A stretch of DNA of 64,000 nucleotides from an uncultured Candidatus Saccharibacteria bacterium (GTDB lineage: Bacteria; Patescibacteriota; Minisyncoccia; Phycocordibacterales; UBA918), in assembly GCA_964350985.1 (NCBI GenBank), contig CAYGLK010000001.1, forward strand, positions 158,636-222,635, read 5' to 3'. The notes beneath the pieces are model-generated. The model had not been told where the DNA came from, did no database searches, and was given only the letters and a program-made list of their open reading frames with translations. Below are positions 5,496-16,520 of the stretch, piece after piece. How positions within the stretch are numbered: the first letter of the stretch is position 1; every line of letters begins with the position of its first letter. A program made the position numbers and the translations under genes.

Positions 5496-5942
5496 TTATT
5501 CAACAATAATTGAAGAGCTAAAGCGCGTACCGCTAACAGCTGGTATGACTTCAAAGTTATATTGTCCAAATTGATAAATAGTAAATACTTCGTAGACACT
5601 ACCGTTTTCATCTGCAGTAACTGTTCTTACATTAGACCCGCCATCTGGCCCACCCATGGTAACTTTCACATCTTCGCCAGGCTGTGCAGCTGTAAAAGCA
5701 ACAAAGATTTCACTATATTCACCTGGTTTGGTGTGTTCGTAGGTAATCCGTAGTTCTCGACCAGATTCAGCTATATTATTTGCAAAATCTTCACCTAAGG
5801 CTGGTTCGTTTTCTTGTACTGATTCTACTTCTGTCTCTGTGTTATTAGTAAATAGTAATGTCGCAACTACTGCTATAGCAATTACGAATAAAACAAAAAA
5901 CAAAATATTTTTATTCATAATTTTAGTATACCAAAAGTTCAA
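5496..5942 (-). CDS. hypothetical exported or membrane-anchored protein. The start is ambiguous: the internal Met MNKNIL near 5918 is more likely.
   Basis: N-terminal hydrophobic helix ILFFVLFVIAIAVVATLLF followed by a soluble domain. Confidence 0.5.
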   Translation of the reverse strand: MNFWYTKIMNKNILFFVLFVIAIAVVATLLFTNNTETEVESVQENEPALGEDFANNIAESGRELRITYEHTKPGEYSEIFVAFTAAQPGEDVKVTMGGPDGGSNVRTVTADENGSVYEVFTIYQFGQYNFEVIPAVSGTRFSSSIIVE

Positions 5943-5965
5943 AAAGATTTCCTTTTGAAATCAAC

Positions 5966-7309
5966 TTAATATATTCTTTCCATATCCGCACCGTCTGAGT
6001 AAATGATCTGAGCTCTACTGTCCTTAATTCTCTTGAATGTAATTACTTCTCCTGGTGAACCGTAACCAATCTTGTCTTGGTTTTTGAACGAGTGTTGTTT
6101 AACTTTTTTATACTTTGACCAAGCTTGCACAGGATTAGGTGCTGAAGCCCCAAATCCAACCAAATCATCTCCTGTACTTACAATCACCTTGTCACCCCAT
6201 CGGTTGCGATACAAGCCTGAGTAGGGCTCATTAGAAATAGATTTTATATCCTTTGTGTTCTTGAGGTCATAAATTAACCTCATTAAATTATCACTAACAG
6301 CTCCAGCAGTGTTTGATTGTGTATTGGTAAGGACAATTACCTGAACATTATCCTCAATATGGCTGATGGCATTAGTTACATATCCTGCAAAACCTCCTGA
6401 GTGTCCGTAGGTCTGTTGACCTGTGACCGCTTCGATGCAAAGCCCTAATCCATACATTTCGTCCTTATTCACAATACTTTGTACCTGACGCATCGCTTTT
6501 CTAGACTCTCTATTGAGTGCGCTCTTCTTACTATCAGGATGTAAAGATGATAAAAACAAAGCCAAGTCTTGCACATTTGAAATAAATCCAGTTGCAGGAG
6601 CATAGGCATTTGTTTTAATGTTAGGCTCTTTTTGTCGGTCTGTCACATCTGGTGTCCAGCGTTCATACCCTATAGTTAGTTTTGCTGGTATCTTATCCGG
6701 TAAATCTGGAAGAGTATTTTTTAATCCGAGTGGTTTGGTGATATTTTCAGTGACATATTTATCATAAGAGTCACCAGATACTTTCTCTATAACAGCTCCA
6801 AGTATGGAGTACCCATGATTTGAGTACTTCATGGTTGTAGCATTATCAAACACAATTGCTTTTGAAGAGACCGTACCCTCAAGCTTAGTTGGAAACTTAT
6901 CATTTACCCATTGCTGTGCCTCACCATCTCGGAAGAGTCCAGCACTATGCGAGAGTAGCTGCCGGATAGTGATGTTAGAAAGATCAGTTTCTTTAGTCTT
7001 ACCCTTAAACCAAGATAAATAATCAGAGACTTTATCATCGAGTTGAAGTTTACCTTTTTCTTGGAGCTGCATGATACTTACAGCTGTAAACATTTTAGAC
7101 ATTGAAGCAACTCGAAATTGTGCATCTTTCTTCATCTCGACATCTTTTTCAATATCAGATAGTCCAAAGGCATTAATATATTTCGGTACACCATTAACCG
7201 CAATGCAAACTACCGCACCCGGAGTATGATCGTAACGGATCTTCATCGGTAGCCAGTTGTCTACAATTTTACCTGCTACTTTGATTGCTTCAGCTAATTC
7301 TTTTTTCAT
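5966..7309 (-). CDS. beta-lactamase-related serine hydrolase (class-C beta-lactamase/esterase family, PF00144-like), cytoplasmic
   Basis: SxxK motif FRVASMSKMF, YxN motif YSNHGY, HxG motif HSGGFAGY. The track ORF starts at 7369 (GTG) inside repeat A; the MKKELAEAIK Met at 7309 is the more likely start. No signal peptide. Confidence 0.75.
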   Translation of the reverse strand: MKKELAEAIKVAGKIVDNWLPMKIRYDHTPGAVVCIAVNGVPKYINAFGLSDIEKDVEMKKDAQFRVASMSKMFTAVSIMQLQEKGKLQLDDKVSDYLSWFKGKTKETDLSNITIRQLLSHSAGLFRDGEAQQWVNDKFPTKLEGTVSSKAIVFDNATTMKYSNHGYSILGAVIEKVSGDSYDKYVTENITKPLGLKNTLPDLPDKIPAKLTIGYERWTPDVTDRQKEPNIKTNAYAPATGFISNVQDLALFLSSLHPDSKKSALNRESRKAMRQVQSIVNKDEMYGLGLCIEAVTGQQTYGHSGGFAGYVTNAISHIEDNVQVIVLTNTQSNTAGAVSDNLMRLIYDLKNTKDIKSISNEPYSGLYRNRWGDKVIVSTGDDLVGFGASAPNPVQAWSKYKKVKQHSFKNQDKIGYGSPGEVITFKRIKDSRAQIIYSDGADMERIY

Positions 7310-7324
7310 AATAAAAAGTATACC

Positions 7325-7420
7325 AGAGGTTCGAACCTTCGATAAAGGTATAAAAAAGAACCGCCACACCTTGAGGAAGGTGGGACGGCTATGTCCTTTC
7401 TTCCACTAGTGTGGTGGCCT
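7325..7420 (+). repeat. Family-1 intergenic repeat, copy A: tRNA-3'-end-like palindrome GGTTCGAACC + TATAAAAAAG + long GC hairpin. It reads as a Rho-independent terminator on the minus strand, downstream of the 7423..7881 gene.
   Basis: Shares gaggttcgaaccttcgataaaggtataaaaaagaaccgcc with copies D and F. The hairpin arms ccgccacac/gtgtggtgg and the inner arms aggaca/tgtcct are compensatory relative to copy B. A-run 7351-7357 is the U-tract on the minus strand. Confidence 0.55.
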
Positions 7421-7422
7421 TG

Positions 7423-7881
7423 TTATCCGCGTTGCAATTTTTGCGAGACCCTCATTTCGGTCAATCGACCAAGCCCCTCGTCGTCAGGCACAAGCAAAGG
7501 GTCCTCTACTTTCCGTCGCCCACGTTCGTCGGTGCTGATGTACGTGAGGATCCTAAAATCTATCCTCCACAAGCCATAAGTCACTGGCATTTCGGCACCG
7601 AGAGGATCGGTAACCTTTCTGGGGAAGCGGTGTGTCATCTCTCGAAAAAGGCCACTGCCGATATCTTTGCGGAATTGATTATCTGTCGGATTTGACCAAA
7701 AGTGGCTGGTGTCGATAACGATTCGATTGGGACAATTCTTGTCCATAAAGTCGTAACTGGCAGTATTGCCAGTGGTTAGACTCTCAAGTAACGCCTCTGT
7801 AAACTCTTTTTTTCTTATATGTACAGAGACTGTCACCATAAAAAATCTACGATTGCGTAGGGCGAGAGAAGGCTCGTCCAT
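7423..7881 (-). CDS. hypothetical protein (152 aa), relatively GC-rich
   Basis: Track ORF; no family recognised. The overlapping plus-strand ORFs 7391..7579 and 7411..7695 are judged spurious. Confidence 0.5.
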   Translation of the reverse strand: MDEPSLALRNRRFFMVTVSVHIRKKEFTEALLESLTTGNTASYDFMDKNCPNRIVIDTSHFWSNPTDNQFRKDIGSGLFREMTHRFPRKVTDPLGAEMPVTYGLWRIDFRILTYISTDERGRRKVEDPLLVPDDEGLGRLTEMRVSQKLQRG

Positions 7882-8057
7882 AATGTACTCCCTAGTGTTG
7901 GTTAAAGAACCGATTTATTTTAATCCTTGCGGGCATAAAGCTGCAAAGAATCTAAAGTTAATATCGCAAAAAAGAAACTCATCGTCAATACACAAATCAA
8001 GCCTTTCATGTTCAAAAACCTCCATGTTGTTAATATTGCATGGATTTGTTTGTAGGT

Positions 8058-8082
8058 TAGGGAAGTTCGAACTTTCTGCATG
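8058..8082 (+). repeat. Family-1 repeat, copy C (core only: GGGAAGTTCGAACTTT)
   Basis: ggttagggaagttcgaactttctgcatgcag contains the perfect palindrome AAGTTCGAACTT shared with D, E and F. Confidence 0.5.
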
Positions 8083-8110
8083 CAGAATGACAGCGTTCTG
8101 ATGTAGAAGT

Positions 8111-8527
8111 CTAGTTCAAATATGAACGTAACTTTTCAGTAATATTTTTCACCTCTGATATATACGGCTCTACACTTCTTTCGGCAGTAGCTGCGTTCAT
8201 AATTGGACGTACAGATTCAATTTTTCTACCAAATTTCTCCATCCAATCATGTCGGGGAAAAATCCAAACATGGAACCCGTGTTCAGTGTCTTCATTTTGG
8301 AAAATGTATACATCTTTGATATTCAAGACATGCTCCATTGCGACTCGAACTTTCTTCAAAATATCTGCTAGCTCGCGGAGTTCTTCGTCTGAAAAATCAG
8401 AAAATGAGCGTTTTGTTTTATCATTTGCTCCAATTACAAAAAAAGCTTCAATTGGAGTTTCCCAATCCTGGCCCACATTGAATGTTTCTGTCTTGAGAAT
8501 TGTACTGTCTGGGAATAATACTTTCAT
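8111..8527 (-). CDS. HIT-like superfamily protein (degenerate histidine-triad region)
   Basis: ...FSDEELRELADILKKVRVAMEHVL...TEHGFHVWIFPRH resembles the HIT-family layout (..PHLHVHVIPR), but the triad is not canonical. Confidence 0.4.
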   Translation of the reverse strand: MKVLFPDSTILKTETFNVGQDWETPIEAFFVIGANDKTKRSFSDFSDEELRELADILKKVRVAMEHVLNIKDVYIFQNEDTEHGFHVWIFPRHDWMEKFGRKIESVRPIMNAATAERSVEPYISEVKNITEKLRSYLN

Positions 8528-8581
8528 AAGATAAGTATATCAGTCCCAGACAAATAAATATCTTGCTAAAAATAGAGTGGT

Positions 8582-9079
8582 CTATAGTGGAATTTCACAC
8601 TCAATGTCGCCTTGGTCTATCATTAAACGCAAAACATCAGAATTGACTACAATCTCTTGTTCTGTTGGGACAGATTCATCCGAGTAAACTTCATAATGAT
8701 GGTTACCTTCACAAAAATTTGCAGGATCTAGTACATAAATATATCCTTCACCATTAAGCTGAATATTGTTAGTTTCACTCCAGATCCTAGCCTGTCCGTT
8801 TCGCTCGGATATCCGCAAACCCATTCGTTGTTCAGGATCAAGTGGTTTTGCAAGAGATAGAACTAGAGGGAGTAAAAAGTCTCCTGGAGCTCCATAAACC
8901 ACTTTCATATGTTTGTTGTGTTTTGATGAGTGGTCAAAAGCTAGATCCGGATCTAGTTTATTTAATCCTTTCTTTTTTGAACCGTGAAAATTTTTTCCTT
9001 CAGCTTTAGCTCGTTCAAGTAAATTCAATGATTTTATAGGATCAAATTTTTCAGGAGTATTGAATTTTTCTTTATTCAT
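8582..9079 (-). CDS. hypothetical protein (165 aa)
   Basis: Track ORF; no family recognised. Confidence 0.5.
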   Translation of the reverse strand: MNKEKFNTPEKFDPIKSLNLLERAKAEGKNFHGSKKKGLNKLDPDLAFDHSSKHNKHMKVVYGAPGDFLLPLVLSLAKPLDPEQRMGLRISERNGQARIWSETNNIQLNGEGYIYVLDPANFCEGNHHYEVYSDESVPTEQEIVVNSDVLRLMIDQGDIECEIPL

Positions 9080-9099
9080 AACAAAATTATAGCAGAAGT

Positions 9100-9160
9100 A
9101 AAAACCACACTTGCGTGTGGCCTAACTTTTATATGCTCCACATAGTGGACGAGATTAGAA
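9100..9160 (+). repeat. Family-2 modular repeat, copy J: type-b hairpin module + GCTCC-N6-TGGACGAG. Lies in a divergent promoter region.
   Basis: accacacttgcgtgtggcctaacttttatatgctcc is identical to the module in copy I (15650-15690), followed by acatagtggacgagattagaaac. Confidence 0.55.
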
Positions 9161-9194
9161 ACAGTATATCTAGTGTATAATTAAGCTCACAGAT

Positions 9195-9980
9195 ATGAAG
9201 ATTTACTCCTGGAACGTCTTATTCAAGAATAAGAAGCTCGACAACGTTCTTGCTTTCATTGAAAAGCTAGATTTTGATATTCTCACTCTCCAAGAAGTCT
9301 CTGAAGAGTTGTTGGAAAGACTAAAACAGCTTCCTTATAGTCTTGCATCCAGCACAGATAAGGTTCGTATAGATGAATTTGGAAAAAATTTCACTGATTC
9401 GCTCGTGATCCTTTCTCGATATTCTATAGTCCAGCAAGAATCTATTTTATTTCCAGCGGAGTGGTATCAAGAACCTGTCGCATGGCAGTCGAAGCTAGCG
9501 AGAAAATTATTGAGTTGGAGGCATTCGTATAAAAGCAGAAGCGGTCTCCGTGTCGAAGTATTTTTACCAGATTCTAAACGTATCCAAATAGTCTGTGCTC
9601 ATCTCGCAATCGTATTTGCTACCCCTGAAACTCGTCAGATGGAGTTTGATTTTTTGATGCAGAAGCGGAATAATGAACTACCCGTTATCTTTTGTGGAGA
9701 TTTTAATATCTTGGAACTACCTCACATAACTCTTCTGAATTGGCTATCTGGTGGAAAGTTAAGTGATTGGATGTTCTGGTGGGGAGAGCGACAAACCTTC
9801 GAGAATAAATTTCAGGAATATTTTTTGCAAAATCCTCTCAAAGGGATGATGACCCATCCCATCGCCATATCTCAGATTGATCACATTCTTATTCCAAAAG
9901 ATTTCCAAGTCATCTCGAAAAAAGTCTTGCGTAGCAAGTTCGGTTCCGATCATAATCCGGTGATGGTGGAAGTGGACTAG
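9195..9980 (+). CDS. endonuclease/exonuclease/phosphatase (EEP) family protein
   Basis: N-terminus MKIYSWNVL..DILTLQEV and C-terminus GSDHNPVMVEV are the classic EEP (PF03372) terminal motifs. Confidence 0.8.
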   Translation: MKIYSWNVLFKNKKLDNVLAFIEKLDFDILTLQEVSEELLERLKQLPYSLASSTDKVRIDEFGKNFTDSLVILSRYSIVQQESILFPAEWYQEPVAWQSKLARKLLSWRHSYKSRSGLRVEVFLPDSKRIQIVCAHLAIVFATPETRQMEFDFLMQKRNNELPVIFCGDFNILELPHITLLNWLSGGKLSDWMFWWGERQTFENKFQEYFLQNPLKGMMTHPIAISQIDHILIPKDFQVISKKVLRSKFGSDHNPVMVEVD

Positions 9981-10030
9981 AGAGCAAAAAAGAAACACAA
10001 TAGCCAGAAAGAATGCTTTTCATGTTGGAT

Positions 10031-10112
10031 GCTCCGCTGGGTGAGGGAAGTTCGAACTTTAGTATAAAAAGAAACCGCTCGTGAAGACGCGGTGTCTTAC
10101 GAACGGTTTTGC
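10031..10112 (+). repeat. Family-1 repeat, copy D: GCTCCGCTGGGTGAGGGAAGTTCGAACTTTAGTATAAAAAG + hairpin. Acts as a bidirectional terminator between the convergent genes 9195..9980 (+) and 10120..10389 (-).
   Basis: Motif conserved in copies E and F. Hairpin aaaccg..gaagacgcggtgtcttc..cggtttt is followed by TTTT on the plus strand and preceded by an A-run, which gives a U-tract on the minus strand. Confidence 0.55.
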
Positions 10113-10119
10113 AGACTCT

Positions 10120-10389
10120 TTAGAACATCTGATACGGCACTGCATTTCCTGGAATTCGAGTGAGAATCATTCCGCAGCCATATCGACCTTTAATGGTCGG
10201 CACAACAATGCGAGAACTGATCTGTCTCTTTCCCAGTCCGATGACTTGGTAGCTGGCTGCAGATACTGGGAAAACGGTTGCTATTCCCAGGATTACCAGC
10301 CCTCCTTTTGGAAGTCGTTCTTGCGCAACCGCTCCTGATTGGTACCACTTGCGCCAAAAACGGCGATCAGTTTTTTTGCTCTGGTTCAT
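10120..10389 (-). CDS. hypothetical small protein (89 aa) in a GC-rich segment
   Basis: Track ORF. An overlapping plus-strand ORF of similar size (10081..10338) exists, so the strand assignment is uncertain. Confidence 0.35.
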   Translation of the reverse strand: MNQSKKTDRRFWRKWYQSGAVAQERLPKGGLVILGIATVFPVSAASYQVIGLGKRQISSRIVVPTIKGRYGCGMILTRIPGNAVPYQMF

Positions 10390-10451
10390 GACACATTCTC
10401 CCTTTGGACAAATTTAACAATAGCACAATAAATGTATTATGTCAATATTTG

Positions 10452-10553
10452 TCCCGCTGAGTCAGGGGAAATGACGACAAGTTTTGTATAAAAAACCGCC
10501 GCACCGTGGGGAAGTCAGGACAGTTGTCCTTTCTTCCACTAGGTGTGGCGGCA
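10452..10553 (+). repeat. Family-1 repeat, copy B (degenerate 5' part + TATAAAAAA + long hairpin). A minus-strand terminator for the 10626..11225 gene.
   Basis: gctgagtcaggggaaatgacgacaagttttgtataaaaaaccgccgcacc...gtggggaagtcaggacagttgtcctttcttccactaggtgtggcggc. The hairpin is homologous to copy A with compensatory base changes. Confidence 0.5.
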
Positions 10554-10625
10554 TGTGTCAGGAACTGCCGGACAGCCCCAGATAGAGCATTTTGTCATTA
10601 GCAGCTGCGGTACATCATCTCACAA

Positions 10626-11225
10626 CTAATCCTCGTCGCCGATTTCGGATTTGATGTTGATCGTAATGACGTGCGGGGCAGTCTGCTGTCCTGAAAGGAA
10701 CAAGAGCCAAGAAAGACCGACGAGCTGTTGCTTGGTGTGTTCAACCCCCAGCAAATCAAGAGCAAGCGACAGTTGATCAGGTGAGTAATTAACCTCACCA
10801 TTTCTGATTATCCCTGCGATCGCCGGGAAGAGAGGACCGTTTTTGAAGCCGTCAACATCGCCCTGATTCAAGTGATGCCGCAACTGTTCCTCCCTGGGTA
10901 CAGCAGCGTATTCCGCTGCCGCATCTTGAGCACCACCTCGCTCATGAGTGATCTCTTCACTGTACCAAGGAGGTACGTCTCCGTCGCAGTCGACCAAGAC
11001 ATTGTCTTTATGGCTCCAAATGAATGGATTACATCTCACGTCCGGCGCGGAAATCGGAAGTTCAGTCGATGGAAATGACAAAAAGACTTCACCTTGGTCG
11101 CCGACACGGAGTACTGTGACTTGAAACATCGTTGCTTCGTCTGCACTCGGATCTGGCTTGAAAGGTACAATCAGCAGATCACCTGCTGAAAGTGAGGTGA
11201 ACAACTTTTTTGGGCTCGTTGGCAT
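10626..11225 (-). CDS. hypothetical protein (199 aa), GC-rich relative to its surroundings
   Basis: Track ORF; no family recognised. Confidence 0.5.
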   Translation of the reverse strand: MPTSPKKLFTSLSAGDLLIVPFKPDPSADEATMFQVTVLRVGDQGEVFLSFPSTELPISAPDVRCNPFIWSHKDNVLVDCDGDVPPWYSEEITHERGGAQDAAAEYAAVPREEQLRHHLNQGDVDGFKNGPLFPAIAGIIRNGEVNYSPDQLSLALDLLGVEHTKQQLVGLSWLLFLSGQQTAPHVITINIKSEIGDED

Positions 11226-11344
11226 CAGATTTTCCTCTAGTTGTGGCTGAGATGGCTTTGATTACGTGCACCATAAGGAGCACTTTGTTTTTATACTATA
11301 ATTTATATCTAATGTCAATTTAACATTGTAATGTCTAAACACAT

Positions 11345-11480
11345 CTGTCACTTTCTCCATTGGAGCACAGAAAAATCCCCAAGAGGGGATTTGTTCAATG
11401 CTCCCTCAACTGGACGCATTCAGAACCTCAAACTGGAGGCGAATACAACAAGAATTGGAAATGAGTGGAATTTTAGGACA
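11345..11480 (+). repeat. Family-2 modular repeat, copy H: partial 5' module + type-a hairpin module + GCTCC-N6-TGGACG..TTCAGAAC + tail AAGAATTGGA..GAGTGGAATTTT
   Basis: gtcactttctccattggagcacagaaaaatccccaagaggggatttgttcaatgctcc is identical to the module in copy G. Its tail matches copy I (agaattgga...gagtgggatttt). Confidence 0.55.
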
Positions 11481-11588
11481 GTTTGAAAATGTTCAACTTC
11501 AGAACTCGTAATTGGAGGAAAGCTCAAATGTAATAAAATTCACTGAATTAATTCTGTAATCTATAGTGGCAAATGCTATTATTTAACT

Positions 11589-12278
11589 ATGAAACTAGAG
11601 CAACTATTACCCAAGAAAGAAACAGCGGAAAAACTTTCGGTAGATTTAGAAACAGTTCTGGATGATCTTGAGGGATTGGATGCAGAAGATTTAATAAATG
11701 CACCCCGTGAATATATTCTCAAAGGAAAAATACTAGCTAGACAGCTCAAACAGATTAGAACACTCGGGGTAGAATTTACAGTCTCTGGAGAAAAGGATCG
11801 TTTAGTTTTATCTACAGGTTCAGTCGGTTGTACTGAGCCTGACCCCAGAGCGTATATACAAGCTCTGATAGACGATAATAAAGAGTTCCCATCGGTTACA
11901 GAAAGAATTCAAACATCTCCACTCAGTATGCATTCACACGACTCTGAGATTGGGGTTGTTCCAAGTATTCCAGATATCATTGCCCTGAGAAACGCTGTAA
12001 ATTCTGCAAGTCTACTTTTTACCAGCGAGGGAATACTGTCATACTCTTGGAATAAAGATTTTGATGTGGAGCAAAAGTTCTTGTCTTTTTTAGAGATAAA
12101 ATACCCAGTTGAAAATATTTTTGACGTCGATACGTTTTATGAACTAGACAAACCAAGACAGATAGAACTCCTTTCTGACTTTTACAATAATTTTGACGTA
12201 CTCATCAAAAAAGCGACTTGGGATGAAGAAGAAAAGTGCCAAGCTATATTAGATCAATATTTTAGTCAGAATAGCTAA
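11589..12278 (+). CDS. hypothetical protein (229 aa)
   Basis: Track ORF; no family recognised. Confidence 0.55.
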   Translation: MKLEQLLPKKETAEKLSVDLETVLDDLEGLDAEDLINAPREYILKGKILARQLKQIRTLGVEFTVSGEKDRLVLSTGSVGCTEPDPRAYIQALIDDNKEFPSVTERIQTSPLSMHSHDSEIGVVPSIPDIIALRNAVNSASLLFTSEGILSYSWNKDFDVEQKFLSFLEIKYPVENIFDVDTFYELDKPRQIELLSDFYNNFDVLIKKATWDEEEKCQAILDQYFSQNS

Positions 12279-12305
12279 AGTAACACTTTACAATTCTTTA
12301 CAAAA

Positions 12306-12345
12306 GCTCCGCTGGGTGAGGGATGTTCGAACTTTAGTGTAAAAT
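12306..12345 (+). repeat. Family-1 repeat, copy E (core without the hairpin)
   Basis: gctccgctgggtgagggatgttcgaactttagtgtaaaatt, almost identical to copy D. Confidence 0.55.
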
Positions 12346-12449
12346 TAGAAAGCAATACATGAAGAATTGGGGTTTATTCGCACTTCAGAATCTGTTTGTA
12401 TACAAGCCACACTAGTCTGATATACTTTAATCATAAATAACATTAAATT

Positions 12450-13388
12450 ATGGAAGAATTTTCAAGATCATCTAAAGAAATGAAATCTAATTATGAGAGG
12501 GCTATGGTCAATTATGGTGATGAAGACTTATCAAAAGATGGAACAATGGAGAAGGACCAAGTCTTTCCAACTGCTTTTATCACATCACGTTGTTTTGCGG
12601 AGCAGACTGATATTCCAAATGCCAAAGAGTTATACGCCTCATTCTGCGATCAAATGGGTTTCGTGAAAGGAGAGAATGAACCAGATCAAATAGATACACC
12701 ACATTTTATGGAACTCAGGTATCTGTCTACTGAAAAAGTATTAAAAGAGGCGGTTAAAAATGAAGGAGTTACTCAGGTTGTTGAATTAGCTTCTGGTTTC
12801 ACTCCACACTCAGTAAATTTACTTACTTCAGTAGAGGGAATTAATAATTACATTGAAAATGACTTTGCTGTTAATCTTGATGTGAAAAAGAAAGCCGTAA
12901 ATGATTTTGTAGGAGGTATTCCCGTAGCCTTTGTTCCTGGAAATGCAGTGGAACAGGAAACTTGGGAAAAAATCGAAGCTCAGTTAACAGATGAACCAGT
13001 GGCAATATTTTGTGAGGGTTTAATGATGTATCTCTCTCGCGATCAGCAAATAGAGTTTTTTAATAACATCAAAGAAGTACTTAAGAAAAAGGGTGGTTTC
13101 TTTATGCATGAAGATATTCTTAAATACCATCCAGAACTAAAAGAAAATCCAAGATTTGCCAGGATAACAAACAAATTGAAAGCTATAAGTAGTAATACTG
13201 CTTTAGACGAAGCCTTTACTCAAGAAGGAGTGACTCAATTCTATGAAAGTCTCGGTTTTGTTGTTGACCGTGTTCCAGAAGATGTCCCGTTAAGTATTGA
13301 TAGCTACCCTGAACACACTCGAGAGAACGCAAGAGAATTACAGACAGCTGGCTTTCAGATGTGGAAACTAAGTTTGCCTAAGGAGTAA
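12450..13388 (+). CDS. class I SAM-dependent O-methyltransferase, leucine-carboxyl-methyltransferase (LCM/TcmP)-like
   Basis: VVELASGFTPHS resembles LCM motif I (VVNLGAGLDTR), and PVAIFCEGLMMYLSRDQQIEFFNNIKEVLKKGGFFMHE resembles the LCM (EGLLMYL) region. Confidence 0.5.
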   Translation: MEEFSRSSKEMKSNYERAMVNYGDEDLSKDGTMEKDQVFPTAFITSRCFAEQTDIPNAKELYASFCDQMGFVKGENEPDQIDTPHFMELRYLSTEKVLKEAVKNEGVTQVVELASGFTPHSVNLLTSVEGINNYIENDFAVNLDVKKKAVNDFVGGIPVAFVPGNAVEQETWEKIEAQLTDEPVAIFCEGLMMYLSRDQQIEFFNNIKEVLKKKGGFFMHEDILKYHPELKENPRFARITNKLKAISSNTALDEAFTQEGVTQFYESLGFVVDRVPEDVPLSIDSYPEHTRENARELQTAGFQMWKLSLPKE

Positions 13389-14090
13389 TTCAGCTATTGC
13401 CTCAGGGTTGGAAAACATAGCCTCATGATCTGCATCAATTGTCATTATTTCTGCAGCGTTTGGTAAAAGAGAAATTATTTCATCAAAGGTTTCTTTTTGT
13501 AATGAGATATCATTTTGACACTTTACATAAATAACTGGAACTTTTGTTTGCTGGAAAGAATCAAGTACAACTATCTCCTCGTAGGGTTTAATTGGTTGAG
13601 GTTCAAGTTTAGATAAGAAGTCATTTAATTCATCAGAGTCCGGGCTGCTGTTAAATAAACCTTGTCTTATTTTCTCTATGTTTGGAGGAATTGATTTGTC
13701 AGCACGATTGGACGCAATTTGTCTGTATTTTTCTTGAACTTCGGAAGGAAGGAGTGAGGAAAAGGCTTTATTTTTTAAGATAACCGAAGTGAGAAAAAAC
13801 GCCTTGTTTATCTTTTCTGGTATTTTTTCAATTACTTTAGAAATAGTTATTCCACCTAGGCTATGACTTACTAATACAATATCATTCAATTTATTTGAAT
13901 TTATATAATCTATTACATAGTTTATATAATCATCTATACAAACATCTTCTTTTTTAATTGAGTCATTCAATCCGTTTCCTGGTAAATCCAGAGTATGGCA
14001 AATGAATTTGTCATTTGGTATCAAATTTATTACCTCATTCCAACACCATCCAGCATGATACGCACCGTGGACGAAAAGTATATTTTGCAT
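13368..14090 (-). CDS. alpha/beta-hydrolase, SABP2/methylesterase-like
   Basis: N-terminus ILFVHGAYHAGWCW is the SABP2/MES-family signature. GxSxG nucleophile elbow VSHSLGG. Catalytic His region DADHEAMFSNPE. The 3' end overlaps the 12450..13388 gene convergently by about 20 nt. Confidence 0.75.
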   Translation of the reverse strand: MQNILFVHGAYHAGWCWNEVINLIPNDKFICHTLDLPGNGLNDSIKKEDVCIDDYINYVIDYINSNKLNDIVLVSHSLGGITISKVIEKIPEKINKAFFLTSVILKNKAFSSLLPSEVQEKYRQIASNRADKSIPPNIEKIRQGLFNSSPDSDELNDFLSKLEPQPIKPYEEIVVLDSFQQTKVPVIYVKCQNDISLQKETFDEIISLLPNAAEIMTIDADHEAMFSNPEAIAELLLRQT

Positions 14091-14167
14091 AAATATAATT
14101 ATATCAAAAGTTTTATGTTCTGTTTTAGTAACAAAAAATAACCTTGTTTTGCAAGGTTATTTTTGTT

Positions 14168-14250
14168 GCTCCGTCATGGGATGAAGTTCGAACTTTAATA
14201 TAAAAAGACCGCCCAAAGGAAGTCTTCCCTTAAGCGGTTGATTGTGAGAA
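14168..14250 (+). repeat. Family-1 repeat, copy F: GCTCCGTCATGGGATGAAGTTCGAACTTTAATATAAAAAG + hairpin. A minus-strand terminator for the 40-aa peptide gene.
   Basis: Hairpin accgc..aggaag tc ttccct..gcggt preceded by an A-run on the plus strand, which is a U-tract on the minus strand. Confidence 0.5.
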
Positions 14251-14253
14251 GAG

Positions 14254-14376
14254 CTAGCCATCATCGTCGTCGTCATTCCACAGAAGAGAAAGAGCGACAC
14301 CAATAGCCACTCCGACAGTGATATTGTCCATTGCAACCCCGATGGCTATGCCTACAGCTAATCCTAAGGGATTCAT
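14254..14376 (-). CDS. small hydrophobic glycine-zipper membrane peptide (40 aa) with a poly-Asp C-terminal tail
   Basis: Own translation: MNPLGLAVGIAIGVAMDNITVGVAIGVALSLLWNDDDDDG. A GGAGG Shine-Dalgarno sits 5 nt upstream of the ATG, and a TTGACA-17-TATATT promoter lies about 35-60 nt upstream. The peptide is below the track's 60-aa cutoff. Confidence 0.45.
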   Translation of the reverse strand: MNPLGLAVGIAIGVAMDNITVGVAIGVALSLLWNDDDDDG

Positions 14377-14409
14377 TCCAGACCTCCATAACTTTTCTTG
14401 ACTACTCAA

Positions 14410-14452
14410 AATATATCATATTATTGTCATATTGTCAATTTGCTCCGGCAGT
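14410..14452 (-). promoter_or_regulatory. sigma70-like promoter (TTGACAATA-N-TATATT) for the 40-aa peptide gene, abutting a degenerate tRNA-Asn 3'-end-like segment (GCTCCGGCAGTAAG)
   Basis: Minus-strand reading: TTGACA (14438-14433), 17-nt spacer, TATATT. The same arrangement (tRNA-3'-like GCTCCGGC.GTA.G next to TTGACAATA) recurs at 16143-16203. Confidence 0.4.
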
Positions 14453-14602
14453 AAGCAAAGCTTTCTATCCTACACTCACAAGAACTAAGTAAAAGTGAAC
14501 TTTGACTTAGCTTGTTCGTTTGAATAGTAGGAATTTCTCTTGTTACACAAGCAGTACACCTTTTGGATTTTCTTTTCGTAAACTCAAGAAAATACTCAAA
14601 AG

Positions 14603-14716
14603 CTTTTCGAATCCTAACGAAAGTGACTTATGTCACTTTCTCCGCCGAAGCACAGAAAAATCCCCAAGAGGGGATTTGTTCAATGCTCCGCGTGCTGGAC
14701 GAGTTTCGAACCTTGG
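14603..14716 (+). repeat. Family-2 modular repeat, copy G, full length: TTTCGAATCCTAACGAA + hairpin AAAGTGAC/GTCACTTT + CTCCGCCGAAGCAC + type-a hairpin AAATCCCC/GGGGATTT + GCTCC-N6-TGGACGAG-TTTCGAACC
   Basis: The 5' two-thirds align with copy I with compensatory hairpin changes (AAAGTGAC..GTCACTTT vs AACGTGAC..GTCACGTT). The central hairpin is identical to copy H. Confidence 0.55.
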
Positions 14717-14771
14717 ATTGGTTAAATATTGAAAACGATTTGAGGTATTTTGATATTGCTCTAACGAAATG

Positions 14772-14800
14772 AGACCCTGCGGTGTATTGCAGGGTCTCGT
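14772..14800 (-). terminator. stem-loop terminator candidate downstream of the 14824..15405 gene
   Basis: gagaccctgc-ggtgtattg-cagggtctc is a 10-bp perfect stem right after the gene's stop, followed by a T-rich stretch on the minus strand (atttcgtt). Confidence 0.4.
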
Positions 14801-14823
14801 GTCGGTCTTACCGACGGGGTTAT

Positions 14824-15405
14824 TCAGGCATATGGACGGCGCAGTGGGTTTTGTCCCAACGGAGCACGAAGGTGTTCAGGGACTTCATTACCGAACAGCT
14901 CGCGATACTCCATTGGAGCAAGGCCGTAACGCCGCACAATGTCAGCGAAGACCCGCAGACCTACCTCGCTGTCGATGTGATACGACGTGACGAAAGGCTT
15001 GCCTTCGCTGGAGGGATCATCGACGAACCTGTTGCCTTGAGACTCTAGCAAGTTGACGAGGCTTTCGTCCGTCGGGCGCTCTGAATTGGCATACAAGACA
15101 TGGCCTTGGTCATCAAGACGCGTGATCCACTCTTCGGGGGGCAGGCAACCGCAGTGGCCAGCGACCCGAATGTCGGTTTTGCCAACAGGGTCGGCGTAGA
15201 GTGCCCGTGCGATTTCGAGTGGTACGCGACAGTTGACGACCCAGTAGCACCAGCCACGCTTGAAGGTCATATCGCCTAGCTTGCCGATGACCGAGTAGGG
15301 CACTTCTGTATTACCCCTCTTGATGTCCACGGCGTCGATGTAACTGCGAGCAAGCTCGCGTCGGATATCTTCGTCGCAGGTTGCGACACCAGCCAGGTTC
15401 TTCAT
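14824..15405 (-). CDS. hypothetical protein (193 aa), markedly GC-rich; probably recently acquired
   Basis: Longest ORF in the segment. The plus-strand ORFs 14769..14990 and 14782..15048 overlap it and are judged spurious. Confidence 0.55.
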   Translation of the reverse strand: MKNLAGVATCDEDIRRELARSYIDAVDIKRGNTEVPYSVIGKLGDMTFKRGWCYWVVNCRVPLEIARALYADPVGKTDIRVAGHCGCLPPEEWITRLDDQGHVLYANSERPTDESLVNLLESQGNRFVDDPSSEGKPFVTSYHIDSEVGLRVFADIVRRYGLAPMEYRELFGNEVPEHLRAPLGQNPLRRPYA

Positions 15406-15587
15406 GGTGCAGTCCTCTCTGTGGTGAACGGAAAATCAAACCAAATAATTCACTATTTATAGTGTATTGTCAATAGTGCTCCGCAGGTGGGAATTTCGGT
15501 CACGAGTTACTAAGCTTTTTATTTCACTTAGCTCATAAAAATCTAAGTACTCTCGACCCCGGCTCATTCGCCTACGGCATCATTCCG

Positions 15588-15780
15588 CCTTTCGAATCCT
15601 AACGAACGTGACGTTTAGTCACGTTCTCCGCCGGAGCATATAAAAGCAAAGACCACACTTGCGTGTGGCCTAACTTTTATATGCTCCCTAAGCTGGACGG
15701 GTTCAGAACTCTTGGTGCAGGAATTTAGACGAGCAAATTGGTCACTAATTCAGAAAGAATTGGATCGGAGTGGGATTTTG
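15588..15780 (+). repeat. Family-2 modular repeat, copy I, full length with the type-b hairpin module and a long tail
   Basis: tttcgaatcctaacgaacgtgacgtttagtcacgttctccgccggagcata + taaaagcaaagaccacacttgcgtgtggcctaacttttata + tgctccctaagctggacgggttcagaac + tail agaattggatcggagtgggatttt. Confidence 0.55.
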
Positions 15781-15879
15781 TATTTTTATCAAAGTCAGGT
15801 ACTTCAGAACTATATTGTATAAAAGAAAGAGGCCCGTTGATGTTATCGCAGGGCCCCGTGACGGCAATACCGTCGGGCG

Positions 15880-16101
15880 TCAGAAGCTGATGATCTCGCC
15901 CTGCGGACCCCAAACCATTCCCATGGTCATGGTCATCGTCATGCCATGACTGGTGTGACTGGTCGATGTCAGAGCGGCGGCCGCACCATTGAAGCCTGCT
16001 TCAGTGAGGCGACGACGGATCTCGTCATGAGACCCTCCCTTGCACTTCTTGGCAAGATCGGTCGCTTCGTCCTTGGTGAGTTTGTGAAAGGGCTTATCGG
16101 C
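15880..16101 (-). CDS. small protein (73 aa from MADKPF..). The N-terminus resembles a Rho_N/HeH-like helical DNA/RNA-binding fold, and the C-terminus carries an MTMTMTMGM tract.
   Basis: A GGAGA Shine-Dalgarno sits 6 nt upstream of the ATG at 16101, and a TTGACA-17-TATAGT promoter lies upstream. The track's longer start (16137) falls inside the promoter palindrome. The LTKDEATDLAKK...EIRRRLTEAGF layout is only weakly family-like. Confidence 0.45.
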   Translation of the reverse strand, partial: ADKPFHKLTKDEATDLAKKCKGGSHDEIRRRLTEAGFNGAAAALTSTSHTSHGMTMTMTMGMVWGPQGEIISF

Positions 16102-16131
16102 CATTCGTGTTCTCCGAGTTAATGGGTGAAA

Positions 16132-16171
16132 TGACAATACCTACTATATCATATATAGTAGGTATTGTCAA
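16132..16171 (-). promoter_or_regulatory. 39-bp near-perfect palindrome containing the sigma70-like promoter TTGACA-17-TATAGT for the 15880..16101 gene; a possible operator
   Basis: tgacaatacctactatat-ca-tatatagtaggtattgtca: arms of about 17 bp are perfectly complementary. The -35 and -10 elements read off the minus strand. Confidence 0.45.
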
Positions 16172-16177
16172 TATAAA

Positions 16178-16203
16178 GCTCCGGCGGTAGGATTCGAACC
16201 TAC
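16178..16203 (-). repeat. Perfect 26-nt direct repeat of the tRNA-Asn 3' end (T-arm + acceptor 3' strand), att-site-like
   Basis: gctccggcggtaggattcgaacctac is identical to 16309-16334 inside and abutting the tRNA, 131 bp away, in the same orientation. Confidence 0.8.
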
Positions 16204-16276
16204 TTGGACAAACGAAAAAGGACCTGAAAGTTTATTTTCAAGTCACTTTTGAGTGCAGTTCAAGAAAGCTATGCTT

Positions 16277-16292
16277 ACGACCAACTCGTTAA
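16277..16292 (-). repeat. 16-nt duplicate of the tRNA-Asn anticodon-arm region
   Basis: acgaccaactcgttaa is identical to 16335-16350 within the tRNA gene. Confidence 0.5.
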
Positions 16293-16309
16293 GGGGAATC
16301 ATTTTTGGG

Positions 16310-16381
16310 CTCCGGCGGTAGGATTCGAACCTACGACCAACTCGTTAACAGCGAGCTGCTCTACCGCTGAGCTACGCCGGA
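16310..16381 (-). tRNA. tRNA-Asn (anticodon GTT), 72 nt; CCA not encoded
   Basis: Manual cloverleaf: TCCGGCG-TA-GCTC-AGCGGTA-GAGC-A-GCTCG-CTGTTAA-CGAGT-TGGTC-GTAGG-TTCGAAT-CCTAC-CGCCGGA-G. It has a 7-bp acceptor stem, a D-loop with GG, a TTCGAAT T-loop and anticodon GTT. Confidence 0.88.
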
Positions 16382-16501
16382 GCCCAAAAATTATTCATTA
16401 TTTAAATTTTAACAGCTCACCTTCTTACAGAAGCTGTTCAGGTTGTCGCCATTGTCATGGCTGGCAACCTCTTGCGAAAGCCTACAAGGCTTTCTCACTC
16501 C

Positions 16502-16520
16502 ACCGCTCCGCTACGCCGGA
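16502..16520 (-). repeat. Degenerate partial copy of the tRNA-Asn 5' half (acceptor 5' strand + D-arm), located upstream of the intact gene
   Basis: caccgctccgctacgccgga vs the tRNA's taccgctgagctacgccgga: about 17/20 identical. Confidence 0.45.

What the first reader, a model, noticed from the sequence alone, without database searches (positions are those of the whole stretch)
7300..16400. About 9-kb accessory island at tRNA-Asn, built from ~2-kb modules bounded by same-orientation repeats resembling the tRNA 3' end
About 12 small cargo genes, mostly unknown or loosely enzymatic and on both strands, lie between the core genes and a tRNA-Asn(GTT). At roughly 2-kb intervals (7325, 8058, 10031, 12306, 14168, 14442, 16178) the plus strand carries GCTCC...TTCGAAC-type segments. 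All are in the same orientation, and each is a more or less degraded version of the reverse complement of the tRNA-Asn 3' end: a perfect 26-nt copy at 16178, diverging to GCTCCGCTGGGTGAGGGAAGTTCGAAC. Segments at 10.1-11.3 kb and 14.77-16.14 kb are visibly GC-richer than the rest of the locus. This is the classic footprint of serial site-specific integrations at a tRNA gene, each leaving an att-core remnant. No integrase gene remains in the window.
Basis: partly seen in the sequence, partly recalled or inferred. Interest (0 to 1): 0.7.

Follow-up and report, generated by a model that had tools for sequence, protein, structure and literature searches.

The report
Gene-cassette array anchored at tRNA-Asn
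In this ultra-small (CPR/Patescibacteria) bacterium, a run of about a dozen foreign single-gene cassettes has been stacked onto the 3' end of the tRNA-Asn gene, each ending in the same 26-base signature. The junctions also carry a previously undescribed, strongly conserved folded element that mimics part of the tRNA.

Summary
tRNA-Asn(GTT), a perfect 26-nt copy of its 3' end, about 12 small cargo genes, GC-rich patches and same-orientation GCTCC...TTCGAAC segments are all there, and the segments are confined to this locus.

The repeats are not decayed tRNA ends. They are a conserved 26-nt motif (TTCGAAC-N14-GGAGC), exactly 5 nt longer than the tRNA's own TTCGAA-N10-GGAGC. The motif recurs downstream of tRNA-Asn in distant relatives, in arrays of up to ten.

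One cassette is shared with a sister species at 89.6% identity, against 68.5% for a neighbouring core gene. The homology stops exactly at the motif's final GGAGC.

In relatives, large serine recombinase genes abut the same tRNA end. Two strains diverge immediately after GGAGC. The +5 offset matches the published attP versus attB half-site geometry of these enzymes.

Best reading: serial integration of small cassettes at the tRNA terminus, probably by a serine integrase acting in trans. The window itself encodes no recombinase.

The junctions also contain a ~135-nt structured tRNA-like module that is absent from Rfam. It shows very strong covariation, and its core is found beside many tRNA genes in CPR metagenomes. 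Its function is unknown.

The parts
16306..16382 (-). tRNA-Asn(GTT), the anchor. Its terminal ...CGGAGC is the integration point.
   Evidence: ARAGORN. Rfam RF00005, 73 bits. The junction was mapped in relatives.
16408..16520 (-). Upstream structured element (U). It consists of a pseudo-copy of the tRNA 5' half (16498-16520), then the conserved core P2/P4/P5/P6 inserted at tRNA position 25/26, then an anticodon-arm-like remnant.
   Evidence: Repeat D16. Partial covariance-model hit at 16421-16470, 24.7 bits. Sequence comparison with L030, L013, L066 and 15+ metagenome loci.
16178..16292 (-). Displaced partial tRNA-Asn copy, starting 14 nt after the tRNA. The anticodon-loop-to-variable segment is at 16276-16292 and the T-arm plus acceptor is at 16178-16203 (perfect 26 nt). 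A ~72-nt insert separates the two.
   Evidence: (D12). This is the one classic displaced-tRNA-fragment footprint in the locus.
16132..16171 (-). Promoter (TTGACA-17-TATAGT on the minus strand) overlapping a perfect 18-nt inverted repeat that looks like an operator. It drives cassette c85.
   Evidence: Inverted repeat I10. Sequence reading. -35 box position.
15683..16137 (-). Cassette 1: GC-rich ORF c85 (15880-16137), terminator, AT-rich spacer and 26-nt motif (15683-15709, TTCAGAAC variant).
15478..15637 (-). tRNA-like structured module (TLM) copy W1. It is preceded by a bidirectional terminator hairpin whose stem includes GGAGC/GCTCC (15633-15687). Its 3' arm is at 15478-15493, followed directly by a TTGACA promoter.
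   Evidence: Covariance-model hit, 49.2 bits, E 4e-8. DNA fold z = -6.7 to -7.1.
14685..15433 (-). Cassette 2: 5' UTR, GC-rich ORF c193 (14824-15405), terminator, AT-rich spacer and 26-nt motif (14685-14711). This is the unit shared with a sister species.
   Evidence: 89.6% identity over 750 nt to L172 9972-10721, ending exactly at GGAGC. The grx region is only 68.5% identical.
14518..14651 (-). TLM copy W2, followed by an extra segment and a 3' arm at 14442-14455, then a TTGACA promoter.
   Evidence: Covariance-model hit, 89.3 bits, E 2.5e-17. 84.7% identical to the L172 TLM at 9819-9916.
14168..14409 (-). Cassette 3: small membrane-like ORF c51 (14254-14409), terminator and 26-nt motif (14168-14193).
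12306..14090 (.). Cassette 4: convergent alpha/beta-hydrolase (13368-14090, minus) and LCM-like methyltransferase (12450-13388, plus), ending in the 26-nt motif at 12306-12332.
   Evidence: Pfam. Motif.
11341..12278 (.). Cassette 5: ORF c229 (11589-12278, plus strand, inverted relative to the tRNA), 26-nt motif (11400-11426), terminator hairpin and a truncated TLM 5' arm (11341-11374).
   Evidence: Repeats D1 and D4..
10031..11225 (-). Cassettes 6 and 7. Cassette 6 is GC-rich c199 (10626-11225) with a degenerate motif at 10451-10478. Cassette 7 is c89 (10120-10389) with a terminator and the 26-nt motif at 10031-10057.
   Evidence: -35 boxes at 11313 and 10440.
7319..9980 (.). Older cassettes:
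- EEP-family nuclease/phosphatase c261 (9195-9980, plus strand)
- motif variant at 9135-9162
- c165 (8582-9079)
- c138 (8111-8527)
- truncated motif at 8055-8072
- c152 (7423-7881, GC 0.48)
- TTCGAA-centred palindrome/extended -10 site at 7319-7350
5496..7309 (-). Both sit behind TTCGAAC/TTTGAAC-N4-GGTATACT promoter sites.
   Evidence: Pfam. Site search. No homologs in 160 related loci. Low GC.

Best explanation
The locus is a tRNA-Asn-anchored cassette array.

Small circular DNA units integrate one after another at the terminal GGAGC of the tRNA-Asn gene, or at a tRNA-end mimic further into the array. Each unit usually carries one gene with its own promoter and terminator. Each insertion pushes older cassettes away from the tRNA. 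It leaves the element's own P-arm fused to GGAGC at the distal junction, and that fusion is the conserved 26-nt motif TTCGAAC-N14-GGAGC.

The recombinase is most likely a large serine integrase supplied in trans, of the kind that occupies this same tRNA end in related genomes. The window has none.

Shown:
- the array anatomy and its conservation across the class
- the exact 3' cassette boundary
- horizontal sharing of one cassette
- serine integrases at the same junction in relatives
- the exact +5 spacing

Inferred:
- that the serine integrase moves the integrase-less cassettes
- that TTCGAA is the zinc-ribbon-domain (ZD) motif
- that each integration regenerates a usable target

The ~135-nt tRNA-like modules at several junctions belong to a wider family of structured elements embedded in pseudo-copies of tRNA genes. 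Their role here is unknown. They could be a landing pad, an RNA, or a folded single-stranded DNA form.
For: 1. The motif is far over chance and confined to the locus.
2. The same architecture lies downstream of tRNA-Asn in distant relatives with 40-55% Fmt identity: L012, L030, L049. L138 has ten motifs and L144 has three.
3. TTCGAA-N-GGAGC spacing over 1.84 Mb gives N=10 x43 (tRNA ends) and N=15 x26 (motif). All other spacings occur 0-3 times.
4. An identical motif sequence occurs in genomes with different tRNA-Asn acceptor stems, so it comes from the element.
5. Cassette c193 is 89.6% identical to a sister species against 68.5% for grx, and the homology ends exactly at ...GCGGAGC.
6. Large serine recombinases (Resolvase + Recombinase + Zn_ribbon_recom) are encoded antisense, overlapping the tRNA-Asn 3' end, in L001, L009, L029, L038, L065, L007 and L028.
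7. L097 and L125, from the same species, are identical through ...CCGGAGC. After that each carries a different recombinase element.
8. L144 has a truncated recombinase remnant next to the tRNA, followed by a motif-delimited array with the TLM at the far end.
9. In published serine-integrase sites, the ZD motif sits at positions 16-24 in attP half-sites and 5 bp closer to the crossover in attB (PMC3783163). With the crossover at the GG of GGAGC, AAG-TTCGAA falls at 16-24 in the motif and AGG-TTCGAA at 11-19 in the tRNA.
10. Cargo is non-syntenic while the tRNA side is conserved. Contigs often break at this tRNA.
Against: - There is no recombinase gene or remnant in the window.
- No circular cassette form and no strain pair differing by one cassette was recovered.
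- The right-hand half-site of the presumed att sites was not identified, and the left flanks of the motif show little inverted symmetry.
- For canonical serine integrases, attL is not a substrate for a further attP. Repeated use of the same tRNA end therefore needs the incoming P' arm to resemble the resident B' arm, which is assumed rather than shown.
- The distal ends of the seven recombinase elements from genome assemblies lay outside the fetched sequence. Only L125 (direct, imperfect), L097 (inverted) and L144 link the recombinase to the motif.
- The left cassette boundary is not resolved; homology fades about 28 nt upstream of the ATG.
- The second cassette tested, c199, has no relatives in comparable arrays.
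Confidence: 0.6

Rival explanations
1. This is the first reader's version: classic serial integration by tyrosine integrases. Each event leaves a displaced copy of the tRNA 3' end (att core), and the copies then decay to different degrees.
For: - A genuine displaced tRNA fragment lies right next to the tRNA (16178-16292).
- The general principle is documented for tycheposons in Prochlorococcus (10.1101/2020.12.28.424599).
- All segments share the tRNA's orientation.
Against: - Spacing is strictly bimodal (10 versus 15 nt), not a decay continuum.
- The 26-nt form is conserved across distant genomes and is identical in genomes with different tRNA acceptor stems.
- No tyrosine-recombinase signature was found in the window or in 1.25 Mb of related loci, though this was only a regex test and is weak.
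- The integrases found at the site are serine recombinases.
Confidence: 0.12
2. This is an integron-like system. The composite of 26-nt motif, hairpin and inverted tRNA-end arm (with or without the TLM) folds as single-stranded DNA into a structured recombination site analogous to attC or CTX-phage attP. A recombinase encoded elsewhere recognises it, perhaps acting on DNA taken up by natural transformation.
For: - The composite palindromes fold far better than shuffles, z = -4.5 to -7.1.
- Structure is conserved while sequence is not: 42/43 pairs are compensatory.
- One strand is favoured: G.U 43 against A.C 17, p = 5e-4.
- The array consists of single-gene cassettes of unknown function.
Against: - Many junctions have the 26-nt motif alone, with no inverted arm or TLM. 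Examples are all ten in L138 and the window copies at 10031, 12306 and 14168.
- Apart from GGAGC, the motif does not pair with the inverted arm (reading).
- No IntI-like gene was found.
- The cassettes have their own promoters and lie in both orientations.
Confidence: 0.1
3. The repeats act mainly at the RNA or transcription level: as tRNA-like punctuation or processing signals, terminator-promoter insulators, or a tRNA-binding small RNA. On this view the island grew by unrelated means such as homologous recombination of transformed DNA.
For: - TLM and U are strongly structured with strand asymmetry.
- They sit between terminators and promoters.
- U lies between a good promoter-like site and the tRNA.
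- The core occurs beside many tRNA types.
Against: - This does not explain why cassette homology ends exactly at GGAGC.
- It does not explain why different integrase elements start there.
- It does not explain why the motif is exactly 5 nt longer than the tRNA end.
- The core occurs in both orientations relative to the neighbouring tRNA.
Confidence: 0.1
4. The repeats are a generic dispersed repeat family (REP/MITE-like) in an otherwise vertically inherited locus.
For: The structured core is itself a multi-copy element in CPR metagenomes: 118 hits in 488 kb.
Against: - Within 64 kb the motif and the TLM occur only at this locus.
- The cargo is not syntenic.
- One cassette is far more similar between species than the core genes are.
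Confidence: 0.04

Closest known systems
Tycheposon-built genomic islands of Prochlorococcus (Hackl et al., bioRxiv 10.1101/2020.12.28.424599)
   Same: - Streamlined genome.
- Island seeded at a tRNA gene.
- Successive integrations push older elements inward.
- Degenerate elements without integrase, fragmented integrases, and small adaptive or unknown cargo.
   Different: - Tycheposons mostly use a dedicated tyrosine recombinase (910 of 937) and carry replication modules. Their scars are partial tRNAs.
- Here the units are single genes and the scar is a non-tRNA 26-nt motif 5 nt longer than the tRNA end.
- The integrases at the site are large serine recombinases.
- The junctions carry a structured tRNA-like module.
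Staphylococcal cassette chromosome (SCC/SCCmec) composite islands at rlmH (orfX). This comparison rests on established knowledge; it was not tested here.
   Same: - Large serine recombinases (Ccr) integrate elements at the 3' end of a conserved gene.
- Arrays of several elements, including recombinase-less pseudo-SCC units, accumulate in tandem. Short direct repeats carrying the integration-site sequence delimit them, and recombinases supplied in trans can move them.
   Different: - The target here is a tRNA gene end rather than a protein gene.
- The units are about 0.3-2 kb single-gene cassettes rather than 10-60 kb elements.
- The lineage is CPR.
- A structured tRNA-mimic module is present.
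Integrons (attI/attC cassette arrays; CALIN arrays lacking the integrase)
   Same: Arrays of many small, mostly single-gene cassettes of unknown function, each ending in a recognisable site. Arrays can exist without a nearby integrase. Some junction sites are conserved in structure rather than sequence.
   Different: - There is no IntI tyrosine recombinase.
- The motif is a short conserved sequence, not an attC palindrome.
- The cassettes have their own promoters and terminators and occur in both orientations.
- The anchor is a tRNA gene.
Large serine integrase attP/attB sites (A118/LI integrase model, PMC3783163)
   Same: A distal motif is shared by the two partner sites but lies exactly 5 bp further from the crossover in one (P type, positions 16-24) than in the other (B type, positions 11-19). 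The recombinase gene lies next to the att site.
   Different: - Only one half-site can be recognised here.
- The crossover dinucleotide and the second half-site are not defined.
- Repeated use of the same target is not typical of canonical phage serine integrases.
Group I introns in Patescibacteria tRNA-Asn genes (PMC13011429)
   Same: Same gene, same phylum. Several relatives here (L007, L028, L050, L066, L097/L125, L172) have the intron in the anticodon loop.
   Different: The window's tRNA-Asn has no intron. That paper does not mention arrays, recombinases or pseudo-tRNA copies. The structured core found here is about 105 nt and does not match Rfam's intron models or any other Rfam model.

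Membership tests
tRNA-anchored genomic island built by serial site-specific integration | Lies directly next to an intact tRNA gene, with the tRNA-side flank syntenic and the other side variable among relatives | tested here: met
   tRNA-Asn is intact. grx, DUF167 and hpf are found in 27-59 related loci. The 16 island and left-flank proteins are found in none.
tRNA-anchored genomic island built by serial site-specific integration | Each unit is bounded by a direct repeat that is a displaced copy of the tRNA 3' segment | tested here: not met
   Only 16178-16292 is a true tRNA copy. All other boundaries carry the 26-nt motif (spacing 15, not 10) or TLM arms.
tRNA-anchored genomic island built by serial site-specific integration | An integrase is encoded in the island, or units can be shown to be gained or lost at the repeat boundaries | tested here: inconclusive
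   There is no integrase in the window. In relatives, integrases sit at the site and one cassette is shared with its boundary at GGAGC. No single-cassette presence/absence pair was found.
Large serine recombinase (serine integrase) att system | A recombinase with Resolvase + Recombinase + zinc-ribbon domains is encoded next to the att site | tested here: inconclusive
   Met in relatives L001, L009, L029 and L065 (all three domains; L038 Resolvase only). A remnant is present in L144. Absent from the window.
Large serine recombinase (serine integrase) att system | The distal (ZD) motif lies 5 bp further from the crossover in attP half-sites than in attB half-sites | tested here: met
   TTCGAA to GGAGC spacing is 15 nt in the motif and 10 nt in the tRNA, with an exact bimodal distribution. 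The geometry is taken from PMC3783163. That TTCGAA is the ZD motif is an inference.
Large serine recombinase (serine integrase) att system | Two inverted half-sites flank a 2-bp crossover, giving a 40-50 bp site | tested here: inconclusive
   The junction maps to the shared CGGAGC. No convincing second half-site was found. A TCGAAAG-like motif lies about 20-28 nt downstream in some recombinase elements, but this rests only on reading.
Large serine recombinase (serine integrase) att system | Catalytic activity on these sites, and a recombination directionality factor for excision | not testable with these tools
   Needs in vitro or in vivo recombination assays.
Integron | An IntI-type tyrosine recombinase adjacent to attI | tested here: not met
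   No tyrosine-recombinase box II/tail signature in the window or related loci. This was a regex test only and is weak. The genes next to the tRNA are grx, DUF167 and hpf.
Integron | attC sites: imperfect palindromes with R''/L''-L'/R' boxes at the 3' end of promoterless, co-oriented cassettes | tested here: not met
   The motif is a 26-nt non-palindromic sequence. The cassettes have TTGACA-17-TATAAT or extended -10 promoters and lie on both strands.
Known RNA families (Rfam 15), for the TLM and U structured element | A match to a curated covariance model at its gathering score | tested here: not met
   Only tRNA (RF00005) matched, in the window and in seven relatives. At E<=5, only chance-level hits overlapping the tRNA and terminator were found.
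Canonical tRNA, for the TLM | Cloverleaf with D arm, anticodon arm, 7-nt T loop and acceptor stem | tested here: not met
   The TLM has an acceptor-like stem and a T-like stem copied from the local tRNA-Asn. A single hairpin replaces the D and anticodon arms, and a ~65-nt insertion follows TTCGAA. ARAGORN and Rfam do not call it a tRNA.

The most novel reading that the evidence does not exclude
The ~105-nt conserved core would be a new class of functional structured RNA, or folded single-stranded DNA, specific to CPR bacteria. It consists of P2, P4/P5 and P6, with invariant ACAG and a CUUCUGUAAGAAG hairpin. It is always embedded in a pseudo-copy of the neighbouring tRNA gene, so it combines a constant scaffold with flanks that match a particular tRNA.

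In this reading the core works as a target-specifying or target-mimicking module. It would mark or create landing pads at tRNA genes for cassette capture, acting as a programmable attB mimic or a guide-like RNA. The tRNA-Asn array would then be an integron-like gene-capture platform for organisms with minimal genomes.
Probability: 0.2. Interest if true: 0.9.

Novelty: new variant of a known kind. Interest (0 to 1): 0.7.

Why it matters
CPR/Patescibacteria have tiny genomes and few recognisable mobile elements, so how they acquire accessory genes is poorly understood.

This locus, with its counterparts in many relatives, points to a dedicated gene-capture hotspot at tRNA-Asn. Single-gene cassettes are stacked there with base-pair-precise boundaries, apparently by serine integrases. 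It resembles a miniature version of SCC or tycheposon islands, with integron-like granularity. The motif and the +5 geometry give a directly testable attP/attB pair for new serine integrases, which are useful genome-engineering enzymes.

Separately, the strongly covarying tRNA-mimicking element is a candidate new RNA or DNA structural family. It is absent from Rfam and lies beside at least 12 different tRNA types in metagenomes. It could explain pseudo-tRNA duplications and frequent assembly breaks at tRNA genes in CPR genomes.

Tried and rejected
- **Same-strain contig.** The exact-protein look-up of the window's glutaredoxin returned only the same strain (L081, 100% identical). Its contig is broken inside the repeat at 15658, so it gave no comparison.
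- **Apparent strain variants L172-L177.** These turned out to be one sequence with different gene calls.
- **Viral collection.** No relatives of two recombinases and no match to the core 24-mer were found.
- **Tyrosine recombinases.** Regex scans found nothing anywhere. This is a weak test.
- **Distal ends of recombinase elements.** The seven elements from genome assemblies continue beyond the fetched sequence.
- **Loose search for tRNA-end copies.** A fuzzy pattern search gave only noise.
- **Second cassette, c199.** Its homologs are distant and lie near tRNA-Asp in another lineage, without the motif.
- **Cargo function.** PADLOC and NCBIfam gave no hits.
- **Motif as part of a helix.** I considered that the 26-nt motif pairs with the inverted arm. 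Only GGAGC/GCTCC pairs.
- **TLM as a known RNA.** I considered tmRNA-like, YrlA-like and intron-like identities. Rfam shows no support.
- **Left-flank ORF.** An assumed large plus-strand ORF at 1-4269 was the wrong frame or strand, with 43 stops. It was not pursued.

Full report
**Organism and setting**

The window comes from a CPR/Patescibacteria bacterium of the Paceibacteria/Parcubacteria type. Its Fmt protein is at most 63% identical to any species representative. tRNA-Asn(GTT) lies at 16306-16382 on the minus strand. To its right is a dense core block of co-oriented genes: grx, DUF167, hpf, fmt, def and onward. To its left are small ORFs on both strands, mostly without any Pfam, NCBIfam or PADLOC family. 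Several of these are markedly GC-rich: c193 0.57, c85 0.55 and c199 0.51, against 0.40 for the core.

**Checking the observation**

The reported segments exist. The strict pattern GCTCC-N12-24-TTCGAAC gives 4 hits against 0.08 expected, all in the locus. GTTCGAAC occurs 6 times against 0.75 expected, and 5 of the 6 are in the locus. The perfect 26-nt tRNA copy at 16178-16203 is real.

Some details differ from the report:
- Copies were missed at 9135, 11400, 14685 and 15683, and there is a degenerate copy at 10451.
- Spacing between copies is irregular, 0.3-2.3 kb.
- The 7325 site is a different element: a TTCGAA-centred palindrome with an extended -10 promoter.
- The 14442 segment is the 3' arm of a structured module.

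**The repeats are not decayed tRNA ends**

On the tRNA strand the motif reads TTCGAAC-N14-GGAGC, 26 nt. The tRNA's own end reads TTCGAA-N10-GGAGC, 21 nt.

I measured TTCGAA-N-GGAGC spacing across 1.84 Mb, covering the window plus 173 related loci. It is strictly bimodal: N=10 occurs 43 times (true tRNA ends), N=15 occurs 26 times, and every other spacing occurs 0-3 times, which is the chance level.

The 26-nt form recurs downstream of tRNA-Asn, in the tRNA's orientation, in relatives whose Fmt is only 40-55% identical: L012, L030 and L049. In metagenome contigs it occurs ten times in L138 and three times in L144.

L144's first copy is identical to the window's 10031 copy, although the two tRNA-Asn acceptor stems differ. 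The motif therefore belongs to the incoming elements rather than to the local tRNA.

**Anatomy of the array**

Reading along the tRNA strand, each unit has these parts in order:
- a promoter, either TTGACA-17-TATAAT or an extended -10, sometimes with a palindromic operator as at 16132-16170
- one gene, rarely two
- an intrinsic terminator
- an AT-rich spacer
- the 26-nt motif

Some cassettes are inverted. At several junctions the motif, or the tRNA end itself, is followed by further parts:
- a bidirectional terminator hairpin whose stem includes GGAGC/GCTCC
- an inverted copy of the local tRNA 3' end, with a hairpin inserted between the acceptor and T-stem segments
- a ~65-nt spacer
- a short direct tRNA 3' fragment that abuts the next promoter

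**Evidence for mobility and the boundary**

The cargo protein c193 has 253 homologs. An 87%-identical copy lies in a sister species with the same synteny: MreB...def-fmt-hpf-DUF167-grx-tRNA-Asn.

At the DNA level, window 15433-14685 matches L172 9972-10721 at 89.6% over 750 nt. The adjacent grx region is only 68.5% identical. The block covers the 5' UTR, ORF, terminator, spacer and motif, and it ends exactly at ...GCGGAGC. Beyond that the two genomes are unrelated.

The cassette is therefore much younger than the species split, and its 3' boundary is the motif's GGAGC. None of the 16 proteins left of the tRNA has a homolog in 160 related loci, whereas the right-flank genes are found in 27-59 loci. 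Many relatives' contigs end at or just after this tRNA. The only other assembly of this strain breaks inside a junction repeat.

**The recombinase**

The window has no recombinase.

In relatives, a large serine recombinase with Resolvase, Recombinase and Zn_ribbon_recom domains is encoded antisense directly after tRNA-Asn. Its last codons are the antisense of the tRNA 3' end. This is seen in L001, L009, L029, L038 and L065, and in L007 and L028.

Three further observations tie it to the arrays:
- L097 and L125 come from one species. They are identical through ...CCGGAGC and then carry different recombinase elements. The junction is therefore the same one that bounds the cassettes.
- L144 has a truncated recombinase remnant on the tRNA, followed by three motif-delimited cargo segments. 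The hairpin and structured module sit at the far end. This is what insertion between the tRNA and its original downstream neighbour would produce.
- L125 has an imperfect motif, and L097 an inverted one, just beyond the recombinase's 5' end.

**Geometry**

For serine integrases, the zinc-ribbon-domain (ZD) motif occupies positions 16-24 of an attP half-site. [quoted passage not shown]

If the crossover is placed at the GG of GGAGC, AAG-TTCGAA falls at 16-24 in the cassette motif and AGG-TTCGAA at 11-19 in the tRNA. The exact +5 offset is thus what a P-type versus B-type half-site predicts. This is an inference: the second half-site and the crossover dinucleotide were not identified.

**Model**

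A circular cassette carries attP, made of a P arm (...AAAG-TTCGAAC-N14) and a P' arm (the cassette's left end). It integrates at the tRNA's terminal GGAGC, or at a TLM 3' arm ending in GGAGC. The tRNA stays intact. The distal junction becomes P arm + GGAGC + the older material, which is the 26-nt motif.

Repetition stacks cassettes, with the newest nearest the tRNA. This is the principle known from tycheposon islands and from SCC composite islands (established knowledge). Here the units are single genes and the enzyme is most likely a serine integrase acting in trans.

**The structured module**

I aligned eleven copies from relatives and built a covariance model. It finds two full copies in the window, at 14518-14651 (89 bits) and 15478-15637 (49 bits). 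It also finds a partial copy upstream of the tRNA at 16421-16470.

Covariation is very strong:
- On the first set, 89.5% of cells are paired against 39-45% in the slid controls, and 38 of 43 pairs show double changes.
- On 74 metagenome copies not used to build the model, 91.5% are paired against 43-48%, 42 of 43 pairs show double changes, and the covariation score is 0.42 against at most 0.08.
- RNAalifold on a plain MAFFT alignment independently recovered three helices.

G.U pairs exceed A.C mismatches 43 to 17 (p = 5e-4) in the helices unrelated to the tRNA, so one strand is the folding strand. No Rfam 15 family matches.

**The core is a general tRNA-associated element**

A 24-nt stretch of the core is identical in three species. 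Used as a probe, it retrieved 90 metagenome stretches. In these, the ~105-nt core is always embedded in a pseudo-copy of the adjacent tRNA gene, with the intact tRNA 40-100 nt away.

Insertion points recur:
- position 25/26 in Asn and Val
- the T loop after TTCGA in Arg, Leu, Cys and Lys
- the anticodon loop in Ile

The core occurs in either orientation relative to the tRNA. The module downstream of tRNA-Asn is a derived variant of this family. What it does is unknown. Candidates are a landing pad or attB mimic, a tRNA-related RNA, or a folded single-stranded DNA site.

**Verdict**

The island is best filed as a new variant of tRNA- or gene-end-anchored accretion islands. It has integron-like granularity and probable serine-integrase chemistry. 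The embedded structured element may be new in kind.

Noticed in passing
window 16408-16520 (minus strand); also L030 7877-8009, L013 12040-12145, L066 3530-3662, L032 390-490: A structured element lies upstream of tRNA-Asn. It is a pseudo-copy of the tRNA 5' half (acceptor strand plus D arm) followed by the conserved core, which contains the invariant 24-mer AACCTGAACAGCTTCTGTAAGAAG. A good promoter-like site (TTGAAT-16-TACAAT) lies upstream of it, so it may be co-transcribed as a tRNA leader.
   Followed up: partly
metagenome loci L082-L161 (for example L129 Val, L099 Arg, L157 Leu, L146 Cys, L140 Lys, L088 Ile, L118 Ser, L111 Gln): The same ~105-nt core sits inside pseudo-copies of many different tRNA genes, next to the intact gene. 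The insertion points recur (25/26, T loop, anticodon loop) and resemble archaeal non-canonical tRNA intron positions. The core occurs in either orientation. The constant scaffold with tRNA-matching flanks looks like a guide RNA or a miniature tRNA-targeting mobile element.
   Followed up: partly
L007 ~2800-3095, L028 ~11500-11790, L050 ~18960-19100, L066 ~11850-12095, L097/L125 ~6180-6525 (oriented coordinates), L172 ~9200-9525: tRNA-Asn genes in several relatives are interrupted in the anticodon loop by a group I-like intron (GAGACTATCC...GATATAGTCC), and ARAGORN misses them. This is already described for Patescibacteria (PMC13011429). The window's tRNA-Asn has no intron.
   Followed up: yes
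L097 (oriented coordinates) 6521-6640 and 8090-8215: A serine recombinase gene is bracketed by ~125-nt near-perfect inverted repeats that include the tRNA's terminal CGGAGCCA. An inverted 26-nt-type arm follows. The layout is the same as tRNA, hairpin, inverted arm, but with the whole recombinase gene in the loop. This may show how the short junction hairpins arose.
   Followed up: partly
L172 9570-9925: Three tRNA-like modules lie in tandem directly after the intron-containing tRNA-Asn of the sister species, with no cargo between them. The c193 cassette follows.
   Followed up: no
window 16132-16170; L012 ~12935-12955; L030 ~9768-9790: Perfect palindromes overlap the first promoter after a junction. 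The sequence ATAGCACACTTnGTGTGCTAT occurs in two different species in front of unrelated cargo genes. This suggests a shared repressor that controls cassette expression from the platform side.
   Followed up: no
window 7355-7420 and 10490-10555: Two GC-rich cargo genes, c152 and c199, are followed by homologous ~70-nt terminator-like segments (GTCCTTTCTTCCACTAG(G)TGTGG.GGC). The genes themselves are unrelated.
   Followed up: no
window 1-4270: No ORF of 110 aa or more is listed in the first 4.3 kb. A long gene probably runs off the window's left edge on the minus strand. My plus-strand frame-1 translation had 43 stops. It was not examined further.
   Followed up: no
L178 160-1836; L179 5680-8636: Homologs of cargo protein c199 lie about 1 kb downstream of tRNA-Asp in a GC-rich lineage; in L179 this follows an Ala-Ile-Met-Met-Asp tRNA cluster. 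This hints that the same cargo family also travels in tRNA-linked islands elsewhere.
   Followed up: partly
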